Assembly: GCA_964508535.1 (NCBI GenBank)
Contig: CAZDTZ010000001.1
Coordinates: forward strand, 25,786-89,785
Direction of reading: 5' to 3'
DNA from: an uncultured Candidatus Saccharibacteria bacterium
GTDB taxonomy: Bacteria; Patescibacteriota; Saccharimonadia; Saccharimonadales; UBA4665
DNA: 64,000 nt
Numbering within the stretch: position 1 is the first letter of the stretch; every line of letters begins with the position of its first letter. The translations under genes and the position numbers were made by a program. Below, piece after piece: positions 28,997 to 35,095 of this stretch. The notes below the pieces were generated by a model. The model had not been told where the DNA came from and did no database searches. It saw only the letters and a list, made by a program, of their open reading frames with translations.

Positions 28997-29437
28997 CTAT
29001 TGCCCCTGCCCTAGCCCGATTATGCCTATGTCGGAACTTAACGTGATCGTTTGCGATTTTTTGTAATCAGTATAGGTAATGGTAACATCGACACGCCTGA
29101 GTTCGGACAGTGGCTGGCTGATTGCTACGGTCCCCACTTTGTCGCGCGGCAGCGATGCTGGCAAACTAGCGGTAAAGTCGATGGTGCCTCCAGGGTTCAA
29201 GGAATTATAGCCGTTGTTACGCAGGTCTTCGATTTCGGTACGCGCTGCCCGCACGGCTAGATCATAGTGCTGGCTTTGGACTTCGGTGATCTGCATGACG
29301 TAGTACAAGCCGCTCAGGCTGCTGATCACAATGCCAAGCACAAGGATGGTCACCAATAGCTCGATGAGCGTAAACCCATCGTTTTTTGGCGTATGTTTTG
29401 TTTTTGTCGCCGCCCGGTCTTGTATGCGTCGGAACAT
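28997..29437 (-). CDS. Prepilin-type minor pilin (PilV/GspI-like)
   Basis: DGFTLIELLVTILVLGIV class III signal. Confidence 0.75.
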   Translation of the reverse strand: MFRRIQDRAATKTKHTPKNDGFTLIELLVTILVLGIVISSLSGLYYVMQITEVQSQHYDLAVRAARTEIEDLRNNGYNSLNPGGTIDFTASLPASLPRDKVGTVAISQPLSELRRVDVTITYTDYKKSQTITLSSDIGIIGLGQGQ

Positions 29438-29519: not shown

Positions 29520-29948
29520 TTAATTCGTGACCGTAATGTCGTCGGCTGGTGATGCGCCACCGAAGATGGTTCCCTTAGCAACCGCAGTGTAGCCAGTACA
29601 GTCGCCACCGGCGCCGTTGTCACAACCACTTGGAGTGGCGGTGTAGGTGTAGTCTGGGGCAACGAATTTGGTGGACAATGTTGTGTTGTTGCCACCGGCG
29701 CTACTCGCCATCCAAGCGTCAACTCCGGCTATGTTGACTGGGTAGTTGCTGTTGTCGGCATTGTACTCGCCAAGCTTGTTGCGAACTTCCGAAAGCGTTG
29801 ATTGCGCATCAGCCTTGTGGGCCTTGTTTTGCGAGCCGCTGTACGCGACAAACGCGATAGCCGCCAAGATACCGATGATGATGATCACGATCAACAGCTC
29901 GATAAGTGTGAATCCTGCAGAATTACTTTTTTTCAGTTGTTTGCTCAT
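29520..29948 (-). CDS. pilA: Major type IV pilin
   Basis: Leader MSKQLKKSNSAG followed by FTLIELLIVIIIIGILAAIA (G-1, F+1, E+5); GAGAGGGA SD. Confidence 0.85.
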   Translation of the reverse strand: MSKQLKKSNSAGFTLIELLIVIIIIGILAAIAFVAYSGSQNKAHKADAQSTLSEVRNKLGEYNADNSNYPVNIAGVDAWMASSAGGNNTTLSTKFVAPDYTYTATPSGCDNGAGGDCTGYTAVAKGTIFGGASPADDITVTN

Positions 29949-30028: not shown

Positions 30029-31339
30029 TTATAAAGTCAACAATTTTAGCATAAGCGGGAACACGAGCCACACATTAAGGCCGATAATGATACCTCCTAC
30101 TCCAAACGTCACGATCTGGAGCCATACCGGATTGGCGAATGTGCCCATGTGTTTCTTACTACTCGTCAGGGCCACCAGTGGAAAAATTGCCAGCGGAAGC
30201 TGCATACTCAATACCACCTGGCTTAAGATGAGTAAACTGGAAAGGCCGGAACCACCGTGTAGCAAAGCAATGCACGCTGCCGGTATGATCGCCAAAGCTC
30301 GCGTAGCTAATCGCCTGACCCACGGCTTAAGCCTAATGTGCAAAAAACCTTCCAAGATAACTTGCCCGGCAAGTGTTGCGGTCACGGTTGAGTTTTGCCC
30401 CGAAGCCAGCAGCGCAATCGCGAACACCGCTCCGGCAACGCCAATACCCAGCAGCGGAGTGAGTATGTCATAGGCTTGGTTGATCTCGGCGATCATATGA
30501 TGGCCGTTTGCATAAAACACCGCAGCAGCCAGAATTAATATCGCGGCGTTAATCAAAAAAGCTACCGATAACGCAAGCGTGGAGTCGATCGTCGCAAAGC
30601 GTATGGCCTCTCTCTTGCCATCTGTGGTCGTGGCATGTGCCCGCGTTTGCACGACTGCTGAATGCAAGTACAGGTTGTGCGGCATGATCGTGGCCCCGAT
30701 GATGCCCACGGCGATTAACAGCATTTGGTGGTTCGTAAATAGTTGTGTAGTTGGCACAAAGCCATGCAACAGCGGCGCTATGGCAGGCTGTGAAAAGAGT
30801 ATTTCTAGGCCGAAGCATACCACCACAATGACAATCAGCGTTATGACCAGCGCCTCCAGATAGCGGAAGCCTTTTTTCTGTAAAAGCAGTAACACCAGCA
30901 CGTCGGCTGCAGTAATGAGTACGCCTATGGGTAACGGGATGTGAAACAGCAGTTCCAGCGCAATGGCCGTGCCGATTACCTCCGCCAAGTCACAGGCGAT
31001 AATCATCACCTCGGCCATCAGCCACAAAAAGACATTGATGTGCTTAGGAAAAGTGTCATGGCATATCTGCGCCAAATCTCTCCCCGTTACAATACCTAGT
31101 TTTACTGCCAGGTGCTGCAGGAGCATGGCAAAAACGCTTGACAGCAATATCACAAAAAGCAGGCTGTAGCCGAATTTTGATCCACCTGCCAAGTCTGTCG
31201 CCCAGTTGCCGGGATCCATATAGCCAACCGCCACCAAATAGCCTGGGCCAGAAAAAGCCACCAGCTTTTTGATGAATGAGGCTTTGTCTGGCACAACAAT
31301 AGAGCGGTGCACGTCGCTCAAACTTTTTAACCCCGGCAT
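30029..31339 (-). CDS. mntH: NRAMP-family divalent metal (Mn2+/Fe2+) transporter
   Basis: GYMDPGNWATDLAGG (DPGN motif); 11-12 TM helices; 436 aa. Confidence 0.9.
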   Translation of the reverse strand: MPGLKSLSDVHRSIVVPDKASFIKKLVAFSGPGYLVAVGYMDPGNWATDLAGGSKFGYSLLFVILLSSVFAMLLQHLAVKLGIVTGRDLAQICHDTFPKHINVFLWLMAEVMIIACDLAEVIGTAIALELLFHIPLPIGVLITAADVLVLLLLQKKGFRYLEALVITLIVIVVVCFGLEILFSQPAIAPLLHGFVPTTQLFTNHQMLLIAVGIIGATIMPHNLYLHSAVVQTRAHATTTDGKREAIRFATIDSTLALSVAFLINAAILILAAAVFYANGHHMIAEINQAYDILTPLLGIGVAGAVFAIALLASGQNSTVTATLAGQVILEGFLHIRLKPWVRRLATRALAIIPAACIALLHGGSGLSSLLILSQVVLSMQLPLAIFPLVALTSSKKHMGTFANPVWLQIVTFGVGGIIIGLNVWLVFPLMLKLLTL

Positions 31340-31466: not shown

Positions 31467-32465
31467 TCACTTGGTGCCCTTCTTGGTCTTGCCGGTGTTC
31501 ACTTCGTAACTCGTGTTAGTGGCTTCAAAGAAGTTGACGAGCTGGAGCGTATCATTGGCGGTGGCCATCCATTTCGCCGGGTTGCTGACTTTGTAGTGCG
31601 GTTCAAAGCCTAATTCTTCTAGGCGTCGGTCGGCCAAGTATTTCACATATTGGTTAATGTAGTCACTGTTAAGGCCCAGAATGCCGTTGGGGAGCAGGTC
31701 GCGGTTATAGCCCTCCTCCATCTCTACGCCGTCTAAGATCATCTGTTTAATCTCGTCAGCGAACTCGGGAGTTTGTAAGTCTTGGTTTTCTTCCAGAACC
31801 GTCAAGATGAGGTTAATGCCAAATTTTAAGTGCAGGCTTTCGTCGCGCACCACCCACTCGATCAGACTGGCAAAATTGCGCAGTAGATTGCGTTGGCGAA
31901 AGCTAAGCGCCACCATAAAGCCACTGTAGAACCAAATACCTTCTAGGATGATGTTGTAAGCGACCAAATTGCGTACAAAGTCCTTTTTGCCCTCGGTGGT
32001 GGTAATGTCCAATGTTTGCTCTGTCATGCGCCGTATGAATTTCGTCTCGAATGCCTCCTTGCGGGCCATGCTGGGCGTTTCAACATGCGCGGCGTAGGCT
32101 TTGTCGCGGTCAATGGGAAAGGTCTCCAGCACGTACTCAAAACTCATGCAGTGGTTGGCTTCTTCCCACATTTGCTTGGCCAGGTACAGATGGCACTCGG
32201 CAGCATTGACATATGGGTACACCCCAAAGGCCAGTGCTTTGTTTACGAGCAATTCGTTCGGGTTGAAGTAGCTCATCAAAAACGTCAGGGCGTGGCGCTC
32301 TTCGTCGCTCATCTTTTTCCAATCAGACAGGTCTTGGCCAAGCTGGATTTCGTTTGGAAACCAAGTGTTGGCCACCGCCTGCTCGTATAAATCCATCGCC
32401 CATTGATAGTGGATGGGCTTTAGTAATAAACCGTCTTGAATACCGGTTCCGAGTATGTGTGACAT
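31467..32465 (-). CDS. nrdB: Ribonucleotide reductase small subunit, class Ic-like (Glu at first ligand, Phe at radical-Tyr position)
   Basis: Ligand motifs NPNELLV, WEEANHCMSF, LEGIWFY and RDESLH. AGGAG SD before the ATG at 32465; the ORF-track start at 32531 is probably too long. Confidence 0.9.
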   Translation of the reverse strand: MSHILGTGIQDGLLLKPIHYQWAMDLYEQAVANTWFPNEIQLGQDLSDWKKMSDEERHALTFLMSYFNPNELLVNKALAFGVYPYVNAAECHLYLAKQMWEEANHCMSFEYVLETFPIDRDKAYAAHVETPSMARKEAFETKFIRRMTEQTLDITTTEGKKDFVRNLVAYNIILEGIWFYSGFMVALSFRQRNLLRNFASLIEWVVRDESLHLKFGINLILTVLEENQDLQTPEFADEIKQMILDGVEMEEGYNRDLLPNGILGLNSDYINQYVKYLADRRLEELGFEPHYKVSNPAKWMATANDTLQLVNFFEATNTSYEVNTGKTKKGTK

Positions 32466-32490: not shown

Positions 32491-32700
32491 TTATTGACAG
32501 CCTTCGCAGGCGAAAGCGTCGGCGGGATCAATAAAGTTGTTCTCGTCTACGGCGACAATGGCAGAGCGCATTTTTCGCTGCTCGGCAGCCACGGCTTCGG
32601 CTATCTGTTGCAATTTGGCTTCCAGGTTTTCGTCGTTAGTGTCTAATGATTCCACTTCGTCCACGAGCTTTTGAATCTTCGGGTTTTTAGATGTTGCCAT
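32491..32700 (-). CDS. 69-aa acidic protein ending in CEGCQ, encoded between nrdA and nrdB
   Basis: AGGAGG-6nt-ATG, with the SD overlapping the nrdA stop. MATSKNPKIQKLVDEVESL..IDPADAFACEGCQ. Confidence 0.6.
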   Translation of the reverse strand: MATSKNPKIQKLVDEVESLDTNDENLEAKLQQIAEAVAAEQRKMRSAIVAVDENNFIDPADAFACEGCQ

Positions 32701-32710
32701 ATATGTCCTC

Positions 32711-35095
32711 CTATGCGGCGCGGGCAAAGCCAAAGCCAGTTTTCTTTTGTCCGAGCCCCGCCGCTTTATTTACTTTTACGGTACTTTGTTCGGCTGAGTG
32801 GCGCGGCTTAACGTGCAAGTAATACGTGGTCTTTAGACCTTTTTTCCAGGCATTACTGTAAATATTCGCCATCTCGTCGATGTCGCGCGTCTCCAGATAC
32901 ATATTGCGGCTGATAGCCTGATCAACCCACTTCTGCGCTCTGGCTGCCACCTCGATGAAGGCGTACGGGCTCAGTTGAAAACTGGTTTTGTAGACATTTT
33001 TTAGCTGTTGTGGGATGGCCTCGATCTGCGTTAAGTCACCTTGCAAGCGCAGCACGTCTTCCCTGACCTCGTCCCAAAGTCCCAGTCTTTTGAGGTCGCG
33101 CACCAGATTACCGTTTACCTCCAGAAACTTGCCGTTTAAAGTTGCGCGGCTAAAAATTTGACTGAATTGCGGGTCGAGTCCTGGCGTTGTGCCCGACACG
33201 TGGGCGTTGTTGGCGGTTGGTGCGATGGCCATAATCGTGGCATTGCGCATGCCCTTTTTGACCTTTGCACGCAAAACGTCCCAGTCTAGGCGGGTCTTAC
33301 GCGTTACGTCTACTTTTATCCGGCGATCCTGCGCATTCACATCAAGTGTGTCTATTGGCACAAGTCCTTTGCTCCAGCCTGAGCCTTTAAAGTTGGGGTA
33401 GCTGCCGCGCGTTTTAGCCAATTCCGCACTGGCATCGATAGCGTGGTAACTAATAAATTCTGTCAGCTGGTCTATGAGATCGTAGGCTTCCTCGCTCTCA
33501 TAGCTGTAGCCTAGTTTTTCGATGACATCGGTAAAACCCATTAGCCCCAAGCCTACGGCGCGGTTTTGTAGGTTAGCGTGCATGGCCTCGGGAATCGGCG
33601 TTTTGGTGATGTCCACCAAGTTATCCAACTGATGAATCGAGCCCCGCACGGCCTGTTCTAGCCTTGTCCAGTCAAAGGTCTTATCGTCCTTAAGGTAGAC
33701 CGATAGATTAATGCTGGACAGATTGCAGACGGCGATGTTCTGAGCGTCTTGTGGCAGGGTGATCTCGGTACACAGATTAGATAAATGGATGGTGCCAGTG
33801 TTGTTGTTGAGTGCACGAACGTTGATCGTGTCTTTCCAGGTGAGCCACGGGTGCGACGTAGCCTGTAGCGTAATCAGAATTTGCCGGAATTGTTTACGCG
33901 CGCTTATTTTTTCAAAGACACGTATTTTTCCAGCGTCGGCCAGCGCAATATATTCGCGGTAGCGCTTGCTAAAGGCTGAGCCGTACAACTCGCACAAATC
34001 AGCCGTTTCGGCCGGGTCAAACAAATACCAAGGCTGGTTTTTATCCGCGCGCTTCATAAATTCGTCGCTGATGAAAACTGCCGTATTAGCAGTACGTGTG
34101 CGCAAGTATGGATCACCGGAGTTTTGCTTGAGGTCAAGAAACTGCGGGAAGTTGACGTGCCAGTTTTCCATGTACAGCGCTGCGGCACCGGCCTTTTTGC
34201 CCTTGCGGCTCACCGAGCGTAATGCAGCATCAACGACGTTCATAAACGGGATTGGGCCAGTCGATACAGTGTTAGTGCTCTTGACCGGTGAGCCCTCGGC
34301 TCGTAGCTTGGTCATGCCCACGCCGATACCGCCGGCGCCTTTGCTCATCCACATGACGTCGCGGACGCCCTTGGCGATAGATTCCATATCATCTTGAATT
34401 TCCATGAGGAAACAGTTACTGAGTTGTGGGAACGAGCCGCCGGCATTGATACGTGTGGTCCCGGCCGGGTTACAACCGAGTGTGCTTATATACTCGTAAA
34501 ATTCTAGAGCCACGGCTGTAGGGTCGGCTTCATTAAGACTGAGCCCCATGGCGATACGCATGTTGGTGAACTGTGGTGTTTCCATTGGCTCGCCGTCGCC
34601 GCGCCGCAGGGCGTAGCGATTTTTGATGGTAATAACGCCCAGGTATTTCATGAGGTTGTCACGTGACGGATCAAGGGCCGCCGCCAAGCGCTTTACGTCG
34701 AATAGTGTATCGTTCATGCGCTCGTCAAGCAGTTTGTCTGTAATCCCCCGTTTGAGATAGGCGGAAAACTGGGCGGTGTGCAGCTTTTTCAGCTCTTCGT
34801 CGGTCTCGTAATCACCTAAAACACGTTTGTAGATCGTTTTGAGCAGCAGGCGTGCGGCAATGATGTCAAAGTCCGGGTCATCCTTAATGTTCTGCAATGC
34901 AGTCTGGATCACTGCTTCGTCGAGCTGCTCGGTGGTAATGCCGTCAAACAGCGTGAGCTGGACTTCGGTAGCAATTTGTACTACCTTGGCAATCTGGTCG
35001 TCCAATCCGCGGCTAGCGCGCTCCAATGCTTTGTTAATTTTGTTGGCGTCGTAGGGCGCTTTTGAGCCGTCGCGCTTAATTACGCTGATATTCAC
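32711..35095 (-). CDS. nrdA: Ribonucleotide-diphosphate reductase large subunit (class I) with N-terminal ATP-cone
   Basis: ATP-cone VIKRDGSKAPYD; active-site SNCF, NLCTEI, AVCNLSS; TTYY. GTG start preceded by AAGGAGGAG. No Cys in the last 33 residues. Confidence 0.95.
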   Translation of the reverse strand: MNISVIKRDGSKAPYDANKINKALERASRGLDDQIAKVVQIATEVQLTLFDGITTEQLDEAVIQTALQNIKDDPDFDIIAARLLLKTIYKRVLGDYETDEELKKLHTAQFSAYLKRGITDKLLDERMNDTLFDVKRLAAALDPSRDNLMKYLGVITIKNRYALRRGDGEPMETPQFTNMRIAMGLSLNEADPTAVALEFYEYISTLGCNPAGTTRINAGGSFPQLSNCFLMEIQDDMESIAKGVRDVMWMSKGAGGIGVGMTKLRAEGSPVKSTNTVSTGPIPFMNVVDAALRSVSRKGKKAGAAALYMENWHVNFPQFLDLKQNSGDPYLRTRTANTAVFISDEFMKRADKNQPWYLFDPAETADLCELYGSAFSKRYREYIALADAGKIRVFEKISARKQFRQILITLQATSHPWLTWKDTINVRALNNNTGTIHLSNLCTEITLPQDAQNIAVCNLSSINLSVYLKDDKTFDWTRLEQAVRGSIHQLDNLVDITKTPIPEAMHANLQNRAVGLGLMGFTDVIEKLGYSYESEEAYDLIDQLTEFISYHAIDASAELAKTRGSYPNFKGSGWSKGLVPIDTLDVNAQDRRIKVDVTRKTRLDWDVLRAKVKKGMRNATIMAIAPTANNAHVSGTTPGLDPQFSQIFSRATLNGKFLEVNGNLVRDLKRLGLWDEVREDVLRLQGDLTQIEAIPQQLKNVYKTSFQLSPYAFIEVAARAQKWVDQAISRNMYLETRDIDEMANIYSNAWKKGLKTTYYLHVKPRHSAEQSTVKVNKAAGLGQKKTGFGFARAA

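What the first reader, a model, noticed from the sequence alone, without database searches (positions are those of the whole stretch)
32491..32830. Strong-SD 69-aa ORF ending in CxxC between nrdA and nrdB, while NrdA lacks its C-terminal redox Cys pair
Class I large subunits normally end in a flexible tail with a Cys pair that shuttles reducing equivalents into the active site (E. coli ..DDGCESGACKI). This NrdA keeps the active-site Cys residues (SNCF, NLCTEI, AVCNLS) and TTYY. Its last 33 residues (..HVKPRHSAEQSTVKVNKAAGLGQKKTGFGFARAA) contain no Cys. Immediately after it comes a separate ORF with a perfect AGGAGG-6nt-ATG, the SD overlapping the nrdA TAG. It is in a different frame, so simple read-through does not fuse the two. 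The ORF encodes an acidic, probably helical peptide ending ..IDPADAFACEGCQ, which resembles a detached RNR tail. Hypothesis: the redox-shuttle tail is supplied in trans, or this peptide is a dedicated mini-reductant or assembly factor. I do not recognise this arrangement as a described one.
Basis: partly seen in the sequence, partly recalled or inferred. Interest (0 to 1): 0.7.

Follow-up and report, generated by a model that had tools for sequence, protein, structure and literature searches.

The report
Detached redox tail of ribonucleotide reductase
In this Saccharibacteria genome the cysteine-bearing tail that normally ends the large subunit of the DNA-precursor enzyme ribonucleotide reductase is encoded as a separate 69-residue protein between the two subunit genes. 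This split is conserved in many environmental bacteria and phages, and I found no description of it for this enzyme class.

Summary
All genes are on the minus strand. nrdA (32711-35095) has an intact active site but no Cys after TTYY. An AGGAGG that overlaps its TAG, followed by 6 nt and an ATG, opens a 69-aa ORF (32491-32700) ending DPADAFACEGCQ. A class Ic-like nrdB follows 25 nt later.

It is neither an assembly error nor a chance ORF. About 73 small homologues (44-98 aa) turned up in a search of 1.8 billion representative proteins. Non-synonymous differences are 0.31 per site against a saturated 0.77 for synonymous ones. The nrdA-small-nrdB order recurs in 15 Saccharibacteria loci and 45 metagenome contigs, with varying spacing and frame. 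All 72 upstream NrdA tails lack Cys.

C-E-x-C-Q-COOH is the normal C-terminus of fused NrdAs of the same clade (P. aeruginosa, Georgenia, Demequina, Calidifontibacter). In the closest of these it sits behind a 60-220-aa disordered linker. The ORF is therefore a detached NrdA redox tail: a helical hairpin plus a flexible CxxC end. It most likely re-reduces the active-site disulfide in trans and is itself recharged by a glutaredoxin or thioredoxin.

Relatives also occur as 21-30-aa micro-ORFs, next to or fused with glutaredoxin in phages, and fused to cytidine deaminase and GNAT enzymes. I found no Pfam, NCBIfam or PHROG family and no paper. It is a new variant of a known mechanism and has not been tested biochemically.

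The parts
32711..35095 (-). nrdA, class I RNR catalytic subunit (794 aa): ATP-cone, all-alpha domain and barrel. The active-site Cys residues (SNCF, NLCTEI, AVCNLS) and the TTYY radical-transfer pair are intact.
   Evidence: Pfam gives PF02867 at 7.6e-161, PF03477 and PF00317. The best solved relative is P. aeruginosa NrdA 5IM3, E 1.2e-185.
32714..32830 (-). C-terminal region of NrdA from TTYY to the end. It is Cys-less and basic, and ends in the conserved (K/R)KxGFGFA(K/R) motif.
   Evidence: There is no Cys in this tail here, in 14 other Saccharibacteria loci and in 57 metagenome loci, nor in 119 of the 120 closest NrdA C-termini. Median net charge in the metagenome loci is +5.
32701..32712 (-). 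Shine-Dalgarno AGGAGG (32712-32707), overlapping the nrdA TAG (32713-32711), plus the 6-nt spacer before the small ORF's ATG.
   Evidence: Read directly from the sequence. Each homologous locus has its own GGAGG or AGGAG upstream of the small ORF.
32491..32700 (-). Small ORF of 69 aa, MATSKNPKIQKLVDEVESLDTNDENLEAKLQQIAEAVAAEQRKMRSAIVAVDENNFIDPADAFACEGCQ. This is the stand-alone NrdA redox-tail protein.
   Evidence: Homologues are. Synteny is shown. Purifying selection is shown. No Pfam, NCBIfam or PHROG family matches.
32551..32682 (-). Predicted acidic helical hairpin (residues 7-17 and 26-50) containing the nearly invariant L30 and I33 (LEAKLQQIAEAV). Inferred to be a docking or solubility module. 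It is absent from the 21-30-aa micro-ORF versions.
   Evidence: AlphaFold2 with a 12-sequence alignment gives pLDDT of about 84 over residues 11-40. Conservation is shown.
32494..32532 (-). Flexible C-terminal tail IDPADAFACEGCQ. D58, P59, C65, C68 and Q69 are invariant in 72 family members. This is the CxxC redox motif at the extreme C-terminus.
   Evidence: Invariant columns are listed. The stretch is disordered in the model. The same terminal motif ends the fused NrdAs of P. aeruginosa, Georgenia, Demequina and Calidifontibacter.
31467..32465 (-). nrdB (332 aa), a class Ic-like radical-generating subunit. It has Phe at the radical-Tyr position and Glu as the first metal ligand.
   Evidence: Pfam gives PF00268 at 3e-75. 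The best solved relative is C. trachomatis R2 1SYY, E 1e-69. In that alignment the query's EEANHCMSF lines up with EEAVHTHTF and NPNELLV with STAESLV.
30029..31339 (-). Nramp/MntH-type divalent-metal (Mn) transporter gene directly downstream of nrdB. It is probably part of the same functional neighbourhood.
   Evidence: Pfam gives PF01566 at 4e-129. The same nrdB-Nramp order is seen in L001 and L003 and in Calidifontibacter indicus.

Best explanation
The 69-aa ORF is the C-terminal redox tail of NrdA, encoded as a separate polypeptide and translated from its own ribosome-binding site within an nrdA-tail-nrdB operon.

Proposed mechanism, step by step:
- Each turnover of the tail-less NrdA leaves a disulfide between the two active-site cysteines (those in SNCF and AVCNLS).
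- The flexible C-terminal ...DPxDxxxC-E-G-C-Q end of the small protein enters the active site, as the covalently attached tail does in other class I enzymes. It reduces the disulfide by thiol-disulfide exchange.
- The oxidised CxxC is then re-reduced by a glutaredoxin/NrdH-like or thioredoxin protein encoded elsewhere in the genome.
- The acidic N-terminal helical hairpin probably keeps the peptide near NrdA, possibly by binding the basic GFGF-containing C-terminus of NrdA.

What is shown: homology of the motif to bona fide NrdA tails; complementary presence and absence with Cys in NrdA; conserved synteny; purifying selection; genomic association with glutaredoxins.

What is inferred: action in trans, the identity of the reductant, and the role of the helices and of the GFGF motif.

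Evolutionary reading: the nearest fused NrdAs carry the tail behind a 60-220-residue low-complexity linker. The split arose by a break in that linker.
For: (a) Motif homology. Fused NrdAs of the same clade end in C-E-x-C-Q-COOH:
- P. aeruginosa ..ACSIDNPDCEACQ, Georgenia ..CSLENPETCEACQ and Pseudomonas phage Illi-2 ..FAECESCQ.
- Barrientosiimonas P0178, 68% identical..GFGFARR-linker-CPTDPQELLNCEACQ.
- Demequina lutea ..ACPVDPMERLQCESCQ and Calidifontibacter ..VCPTDPQALLECEACQ.
- Nine metagenomic NrdAs of 866-887 aa ending ..EDPQDxxLCEGCQ.

(b) Complementarity. NrdA tails lack Cys in 15 of 15 Saccharibacteria loci and 57 of 57 metagenome loci where the small ORF follows nrdA. 119 of the 120 closest NrdA C-termini lack Cys.

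(c) A real gene, not an artefact. Each locus has its own SD and ATG. The gap from nrdA to the small ORF ranges from -4 to +135 nt and falls in all three frames. pN is 0.31 against pS 0.77, and dN/dS is about 0.17. A profile search of 1.84 billion representative proteins gave 77 hits, of which about 73 are small proteins of 44-98 aa ending in the motif; none is NrdA-sized.

(d) Redox partner by association.
- One contig carries an nrdA-small-nrdB-glutaredoxin operon.
- A glutaredoxin gene (PF00462) lies in 22 of 61 viral loci that carry the motif. It abuts or overlaps the small ORF in about 15 of these and is fused to the tail in 2. A further fusion occurs in L139.

(e) Shape. The model is a helical hairpin followed by 19 disordered C-terminal residues, as expected for a tail that must reach an active site.

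(f) Precedent from the literature. In P. aeruginosa class II RNR a separate NrdJb polypeptide carries the C-terminal cysteines and mediates disulfide exchange in trans (PMC4520616).
Against: - There is no biochemical or genetic test.
- No thioredoxin or glutaredoxin gene lies in this 64-kb window, so the recharging partner in this organism is unidentified.
- The role of the helical hairpin is unknown, and the micro-ORF versions of 21-30 aa do without it.
- Some phage homologues follow a monomeric class II RNR. The one tail I read there, in L018, keeps its own CxxxxC.
- Most phage homologues have no RNR gene in the fetched stretch. The module is therefore not only a replacement for a missing tail.
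- The same tail is fused to cytidine deaminase and GNAT enzymes, which the simple model does not explain.
- A complex model of NrdA with the peptide could not be computed with the tools available.
Confidence: 0.8

Rival explanations
1. This is a sequencing or assembly indel, or a recent pseudogenising frameshift. The true gene would be a single nrdA with a normal Cys tail.
For: The small ORF starts only 10 nt after the nrdA stop codon and is in another frame. Fused relatives exist.
Against: The split recurs in independent assemblies from NCBI, ENA, JGI and Logan: 15 Saccharibacteria loci and at least 57 metagenome loci. The gaps range from -4 to +135 nt and fall in all three frames, and each small ORF has its own SD and ATG and a conserved M-A-T-S N-terminus. 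The N-terminal 50 residues are under purifying selection. They form a predicted helical hairpin that looks unlike the low-complexity linkers of the fused proteins; I did not align the two.
Confidence: 0.01
2. Programmed recoding (ribosomal frameshift, stop-codon bypass or hopping) joins NrdA and the small ORF into one polypeptide during translation.
For: The genes abut or overlap. In high-GC relatives such as L084 the tail frame stays open for about 100 codons over the end of nrdA. Translational bypassing elements are known in phage genes (10.1101/2022.08.31.505936, title and abstract seen, not read further).
Against: Frame offset and distance differ from locus to locus, and there is no conserved slippery site at a fixed position. 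Some micro-ORFs are bounded by an in-frame stop immediately upstream; for example, the stop-to-stop ORF in L085 and L182 is only 27 codons. In 7 loci the small ORF lies after nrdB, not after nrdA. Strong SDs precede the ATG.
Confidence: 0.03
3. The small protein is a metallochaperone or assembly factor for the Mn/Fe cofactor of the class Ic NrdB. Its CxxC would act as a metal ligand rather than as a redox shuttle.
For: It sits between nrdA and nrdB, and an Nramp Mn-transporter gene follows. CxxC motifs bind metals in many chaperones (general knowledge). JGI's automatic name for one homologue is 'Zn-ribbon protein'.
Against: The motif is homologous to the C-terminus of fused NrdA, not of NrdB, in close relatives. 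Its presence is complementary to Cys in NrdA tails. It associates with and fuses to glutaredoxins. Two cysteines alone do not make a Zn ribbon. Homologues also accompany class II RNRs, which use no NrdB.
Confidence: 0.06
4. The peptide is a regulator or inhibitor. It would occupy the tail-binding or active-site entrance of NrdA, like Sml1, or act as a phage-type modulator of host RNR, rather than being the obligatory reductant.
For: Phage homologues occur without a nearby RNR, or next to a class II RNR whose tail, in the one locus read (L018), has its own Cys pair. This would fit a modulator acting on another, possibly host, enzyme.
Against: In the bacterial operons NrdA has no tail cysteines at all, so some shuttle is needed, and the peptide carries exactly the missing motif. 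The two cysteines are invariant, and the glutaredoxin linkage points to redox cycling.
Confidence: 0.06

Closest known systems
Covalent C-terminal Cys-pair tail of class I RNR large subunits, specifically the ...C-E-A/S/G-C-Q-COOH tail of the P. aeruginosa-type NrdA clade
   Same: It has the same terminal motif at the extreme C-terminus (CxxC followed by Q). The motif is preceded by an acidic, Pro-containing segment and is predicted to be flexible. Close NrdA relatives (66-69% identical over the C-terminal 329 aa) carry it in cis.
   Different: Here it is a separate gene product with its own SD and start codon and an added N-terminal helical hairpin. The NrdA polypeptide ends instead in a basic GFGF motif without Cys.
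Split class II RNR NrdJa/NrdJb of P. aeruginosa (Crona et al. 2015, PMC4520616)
   Same: The catalytic polypeptide lacks the C-terminal cysteines. A second polypeptide from the same operon supplies them and mediates thiol-disulfide exchange in trans.
   Different: That system is class II (B12-dependent), not class I. NrdJb is 229 aa, and AlphaFold predictions give it folded IscU-like and zinc-finger domains (Burnim et al., bioRxiv 10.1101/2022.04.23.489257). Here the partner is 21-76 aa with no Pfam family match; I did not compare it directly with an NrdJb sequence. Crona et al. called NrdJab the only split RNR known in a non-viral organism.
Glutaredoxin fused to NrdB in Facklamia ignava (PMC6187632), and the NrdH-redoxin partners of class Ib RNR
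   Same: These are examples of RNR operons rearranging the electron-delivery chain as modules. Relatives of this peptide are encoded next to, or fused with, glutaredoxin-fold proteins.
   Different: The window's small protein has no thioredoxin or glutaredoxin fold: there is no PF00462 hit and the model is a helical hairpin. It corresponds to the substrate of such redoxins, not to the redoxin.
Yeast Rnr1 CX2C tail acting on the neighbouring protomer (Zhang et al. 2007 PNAS; recalled from my own knowledge, not checked here)
   Same: It shows that a class I tail can regenerate an active site that is not on its own polypeptide.
   Different: In yeast the tail is still covalently part of an R1 subunit within the dimer. 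Here it is a free small protein.

Membership tests
Class I RNR catalytic subunit (NrdA) | ATP-cone, all-alpha domain and ten-stranded barrel domain | tested here: met
   PF03477, PF00317 and PF02867 all score above their cut-offs. P. aeruginosa NrdA 5IM3 matches at E 1.2e-185.
Class I RNR catalytic subunit (NrdA) | Active-site Cys triad with Glu, and a C-terminal YY pair for radical transfer | tested here: met
   SNCF, NLCTEI, AVCNLS and TTYY are present in the translation. They align with the corresponding residues of 5IM3.
Class I RNR catalytic subunit (NrdA) | C-terminal flexible tail carrying a redox-active Cys pair on the same polypeptide | tested here: not met
   There is no Cys after TTYY in this NrdA or in 71 syntenic relatives. 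The motif is on the next ORF.
NrdA C-terminal redox tail (C-E-x-C-Q-COOH type) | CxxC two residues from the C-terminus, followed by Q and the stop codon | tested here: met
   The ORF ends ..ACEGCQ*. C65, C68 and Q69 are invariant in 72 sequences. The fused NrdAs have the same ending.
NrdA C-terminal redox tail (C-E-x-C-Q-COOH type) | Conformationally flexible segment able to reach the active site | tested here: inconclusive
   AlphaFold2 gives no secondary structure and pLDDT of 51-57 for residues 51-69. This is consistent with flexibility, but no complex model or experiment exists.
NrdA C-terminal redox tail (C-E-x-C-Q-COOH type) | Reduces the active-site disulfide and is itself reduced by thioredoxin or glutaredoxin | not testable with these tools
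   The only evidence is by association: glutaredoxin genes adjacent to or fused with relatives.
Class Ic NrdB (C. trachomatis type, Mn/Fe) | Phe in place of the radical Tyr, and Glu in place of the first Asp ligand | tested here: met
   In the alignment to 1SYY the query's EEANHCMSF lines up with EEAVHTHTF and NPNELLV with STAESLV. The metal content itself cannot be tested here.
Glutaredoxin / NrdH redoxin | Thioredoxin fold with an N-terminal CxxC (PF00462) | tested here: not met
   The small ORF has no PF00462 hit. The model is all-helical with the CxxC at the C-terminus.
Split class II RNR subunit NrdJb | A protein of about 229 aa with a Cys-rich zinc-finger or IscU-like domain, partnered with a B12-dependent NrdJa | tested here: not met
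   The partner here is a class I NrdA with an NrdB. The small ORF is 69 aa with only two Cys and has no Pfam domain. It is a functional analogy only.

The most novel reading that the evidence does not exclude
The DPxDxxxC-E-G-C-Q-COOH tail may be a portable, diffusible electron-shuttle and RNR-docking module rather than just a broken-off piece of NrdA.
- Bacteria would use it as a free (micro)protein.
- Phages would carry it together with their own glutaredoxin to drive or hijack RNR turnover, including host enzymes.
- Actinobacteria would graft it onto cytidine deaminase and GNAT enzymes to couple them physically or by redox to RNR.

If so, peptides as short as 21 residues would be genuine, unannotated subunits of an essential enzyme.
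Probability: 0.3. Interest if true: 0.85.

Novelty: new variant of a known kind. Interest (0 to 1): 0.72.

Why it matters
The C-terminal Cys pair is treated as a defining, built-in part of class I RNR large subunits. Surveys of RNR C-termini have described Cys-less cases only for class II, and suggested small-molecule reductants for the unexplained ones (bioRxiv 10.1101/2022.04.23.489257). Here a whole, widespread NrdA lineage turns out to depend on a separately encoded tail, in Saccharibacteria, in high-GC contigs resembling Actinobacteria, and in phages. Gene callers often miss this tail when it is only 21-30 aa.

This has several consequences:
- It provides a natural system for studying tail-to-active-site electron delivery with a titratable, mutable peptide.
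- It explains apparently 'tail-less' NrdAs.
- It adds an essential micro-protein to the minimal genomes of Patescibacteria.
- It points to phage-encoded tail plus glutaredoxin pairs as a possible way of controlling dNTP supply.
- Fused and split versions exist in close relatives, some of them cultured (Demequina, Calidifontibacter), so the idea is directly testable.

Tried and rejected
- The profile of the small ORF against PDB sequences gave only coiled-coil noise.
- A 26-aa fused-tail peptide against PDB gave nothing.
- Pfam, NCBIfam and PHROGs gave no family for the small protein, only sub-threshold coiled-coil hits.
- tblastn of a distant homologue against GenBank phages found no match.
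With the 12-sequence alignment it returned only 10 Saccharibacteria loci, because the peptide pattern was narrow.
- Rfam found no match anywhere in the window. The promoter and terminator scan was no better than shuffles and showed no terminator between the three genes on the minus strand.
- phmmer with E. coli TrxA and NrdH and three phage glutaredoxins found no redoxin gene in the 64-kb window.
- Literature searches for the motif strings, for 'in trans' tails, for Cys-less class I tails and for Saccharibacteria RNR found no prior description. The library is incomplete.
- I considered a RiPP-precursor reading (a leader helix plus a Cys-containing core). I rejected it because no maturase genes accompany the ORF and because the motif is homologous to NrdA C-termini.
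- I did not attempt a complex prediction of NrdA plus peptide.
Full report
**What is in the window.** All relevant genes are on the minus strand.
- nrdA (32711-35095) encodes 794 aa with ATP-cone, all-alpha and barrel domains. It is most similar to P. aeruginosa NrdA among solved structures (5IM3, E 1.2e-185).
- The catalytic motifs SNCF, NLCTEI and AVCNLS and the TTYY pair are present. The 35 residues after TTYY (LHVKPRHSAEQSTVKVNKAAGLGQKKTGFGFARAA) contain no cysteine.
- The TAG stop (32713-32711) is overlapped by AGGAGG (32712-32707). Six bases later an ATG (32700) opens a 69-codon ORF in the +1 frame, which ends ...IDPADAFACEGCQ-TAA (32491).
- After a further 25 nt, and with its own GGAG, nrdB starts at 32465 (332 aa).
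- The best solved relative of this NrdB is the class Ic R2 of Chlamydia trachomatis (1SYY, E 1e-69). Phe aligns with Phe127 at the radical-Tyr position and Glu aligns with Glu89.
- An Nramp transporter gene follows (30029-31339).
- No terminator-like site separates nrdA, the small ORF and nrdB on the minus strand.

**The ORF is a real, conserved gene.**
- A word-indexed search found 12 homologues of 66-76 aa, all stand-alone. The invariant residues include D58, P59, D61, A62, F63, C65, G67, C68 and Q69.
- An exhaustive profile search of 1.84 billion representative proteins gave 77 hits. About 73 of them are small proteins of 44-98 aa that end in the same motif, and none is NrdA-sized.
- Across ten Saccharibacteria loci the median non-synonymous difference is 0.31 per site. 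Synonymous sites are saturated at 0.77, and dN/dS is about 0.17 where it can be computed.
- AlphaFold2 with the 12-sequence alignment predicts helices at 7-17 and 26-50 (pLDDT about 84) and an unstructured stretch at 51-69.
- Pfam, NCBIfam and PHROGs have no family for it.

**It is not a frameshift artefact or recoding.**
- The order nrdA, small ORF, nrdB is found in this window and in 14 other Saccharibacteria loci from NCBI, ENA and Logan assemblies.
- It is also found in 45 of 120 metagenome contigs recovered with a degenerate DNA pattern for the motif. In 7 more contigs the small ORF follows nrdB.
- The distance from the nrdA stop to the small ORF start ranges from -4 to +135 nt and falls in all three frames. 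Each copy has its own start codon, and every Saccharibacteria copy has its own SD.

**It is the NrdA tail.** NrdAs of the same clade that have a normal, covalently attached tail end in the same way.
- P. aeruginosa ends ..ACSIDNPDCEACQ, Georgenia ..ACSLENPETCEACQ and a Pseudomonas phage ..FAECESCQ.
- Among the 120 database proteins closest to the C-terminal 329 aa of this NrdA, 119 have no Cys after TTYY. They end in a conserved basic (K/R)KxGFGFAK motif.
- The single exception, from the actinobacterium Barrientosiimonas (68% identical), continues after GFGFARR with a Pro/Ala-rich linker and ends ..CPTDPQELLNCEACQ.
- Cultured Actinobacteria have an NrdB 85-87% identical to that of a high-GC relative (L084) of this operon, and their NrdAs are fused. 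Demequina lutea (1013 aa) has GFG repeats, then about 200 low-complexity residues, then ..ACPVDPMERLQCESCQ. Calidifontibacter indicus (863 aa) has GFGFGRR, then about 60 residues, then ..VCPTDPQALLECEACQ.
- Nine metagenomic NrdAs of 866-887 aa end ..EDPQDxxLCEGCQ after a 55-70-residue linker.
- Conversely, every NrdA that is followed by the small ORF lacks tail cysteines: 15 of 15 and 57 of 57.

The small ORF therefore carries exactly what its NrdA has lost. The most economical history is a break within a long disordered linker.

**Forms of the detached tail.**
- Saccharibacteria-type proteins of 66-76 aa, and a very common 55-65-aa type (MNASTIINDDMTLEEKLAAID...APLDPADLTMCEGCQ), both have the N-terminal helix.
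- High-GC contigs carry micro-ORFs of 21-30 aa without it. Examples are MNEEYYVPVDPMDELQCESCQ, starting at the nrdA stop in L084, which the gene caller missed, and MMNEHDNVGEYMVPMDPMDLLHCEGCQ in L085 and L182.
- The peptides are acidic (median net charge -7). The NrdA tails they accompany are basic (median +5). This makes an electrostatic interaction plausible but proves nothing.

**Redox partners.**
- One contig has nrdA, small ORF (67 aa), nrdB and glutaredoxin in a row. L166 has a glutaredoxin about 1 kb downstream.
- In IMG/VR the exact motif pattern occurs in 61 viral contigs, always at the end of a small ORF of 23-100 aa.
- A glutaredoxin gene (PF00462) lies on the same strand in 22 of those 61. 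It abuts or overlaps the small ORF in about 15 and is fused to the tail in L021 and L064. L139 carries the same fusion.
- This is the association expected if the tail is a substrate of a glutaredoxin/NrdH-type reductant.
- The 64-kb window itself contains no recognisable thioredoxin or glutaredoxin.

**What does not fit the simplest model.**
- In most viral stretches no RNR gene was detected near the small ORF.
- In L018 and L030 the gene immediately upstream is a monomeric class II RNR. The related ORF in L036 matches 1L1L at E 4.6e-40. The L018 RNR ends in its own CxxxxC (..ELACVGGNCEV).
- The tail also ends cytidine deaminases (L133, L156, L183) and GNAT acetyltransferases (L119, L181) in high-GC metagenome contigs.

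These cases suggest the motif is a portable module with a wider use than replacing a lost NrdA tail. They do not weaken the reading of the operon in this window.

**Comparison with what is known.**
- The mechanism proposed is the established one for class I and II RNRs: a C-terminal Cys pair shuttles electrons from thioredoxin or glutaredoxin to the active site.
- A separate polypeptide carrying that pair is documented only for the split class II enzyme NrdJa/NrdJb. [quoted passage not shown]
- Burnim et al. discuss Cys-less C-termini only for class II, and state that most class I enzymes have a C-terminal CXXC (bioRxiv 10.1101/2022.04.23.489257; PMC9669993).
- Six full-text searches, including the motif strings, found no description of a stand-alone class I tail. 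The library does not hold all journals, so the absence of a hit is not proof.

**Verdict.** I put the probability that the ORF acts as a trans-acting redox tail at about 0.8. It is a new variant of a known mechanism. It is widespread, directly testable, and has unexplained extensions in phages and enzyme fusions.

Noticed in passing
window 30029-31339 (-); also L001, L003, L207, L208: An Nramp/MntH-type metal transporter gene lies directly downstream of nrdB. The same nrdB-Nramp order is found in the actinobacterium Calidifontibacter indicus. This fits a manganese requirement of the class Ic-like R2, and transfer of the whole block between lineages.
   Followed up: partly
window 31467-32465 (-) compared with the proteins: The NrdB of L084, a high-GC relative of this operon, is 85-87% identical to NrdB proteins of both cultured Actinobacteria (Demequina, Calidifontibacter, Pengzhenrongella) and Saccharibacteria. 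Identity this high between an epibiont phylum and its usual host phylum suggests horizontal transfer of the RNR operon.
   Followed up: partly
window 32714-32750 (-); NrdA C-termini listed; L205, L207: NrdA ends in a conserved basic (K/R)KxGFGFA(K/R) motif. The motif occurs in two to four copies in high-GC and actinobacterial relatives and is kept in the fused versions too. Its function is unknown. It may be a docking site for the acidic tail protein or for a redoxin.
   Followed up: partly
L021 2691-3014 (-), L064 2154-2465 (+), L139: These loci encode glutaredoxin-fold proteins (CAPC ... MVPVTVV..GF) carrying the DPSDALACEGCQ tail at their C-terminus. Reductant and RNR tail are thus in one chain.
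   Followed up: partly
L133, L156, L183 (cytidine deaminase); L119, L181 (GNAT): In high-GC metagenome contigs, cytidine deaminases and GNAT acetyltransferases end in ..DPADDxxCEGCQ, the same tail motif. No RNR gene was detected in the fetched stretches.
   Followed up: partly
L019-L079 (IMG/VR viral contigs): The small tail ORF sits in a recurring phage gene neighbourhood. The neighbours are a DUF6378 protein (23 loci, immediately upstream), an RNase H-like exonuclease (28 loci), polynucleotide kinase-phosphatase (17), RNA ligase (12) and glutaredoxin (22). RNR genes were seen in only 5 of the 61 stretches.
   Followed up: partly
L018 2-1053, L030, L036: A monomeric class II RNR is encoded near a 47-50-aa tail protein in these phage loci, directly upstream of it in L018 and L030. 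The L018 RNR ends in its own CxxxxC tail (..ELACVGGNCEV). The small protein is therefore not replacing a missing tail there.
   Followed up: partly
L084 1630-1692 (+); L085, L182, L201, L204, L142, L150: Micro-ORFs of 21-30 aa, such as MNEEYYVPVDPMDELQCESCQ, lie at or just after the nrdA stop in high-GC contigs. In L084 the gene caller did not call it. These are probably systematically unannotated.
   Followed up: partly
L029 1-4874: This phage-like stretch carries, in order: an ORF that looks like ThyX, a region I read by eye as three tRNA genes, an SD plus a 27-aa tail micro-ORF, a 316-aa ORF with no Pfam hit, and a class Ic-like nrdB very similar to the window's (E 9e-183). No nrdA lies in the stretch. 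The 316-aa ORF contains LEWLAGLFDSGL, which may indicate a homing endonuclease. The ThyX and tRNA readings were not checked with a tool.
   Followed up: no
window 28997-29437 (-) and 29520-29948 (-): Two type IV pilin-like genes with N-terminal methylation motifs (GFTLIELL) lie just downstream of the Nramp gene. The second matches PF07963 and ComP_DUS. This is typical of Saccharibacteria.
   Followed up: partly
window 1-64000: There is no Rfam family match at gathering threshold anywhere in the 64-kb window. No thioredoxin, glutaredoxin or NrdH gene was detected either, by phmmer with five queries.
   Followed up: yes
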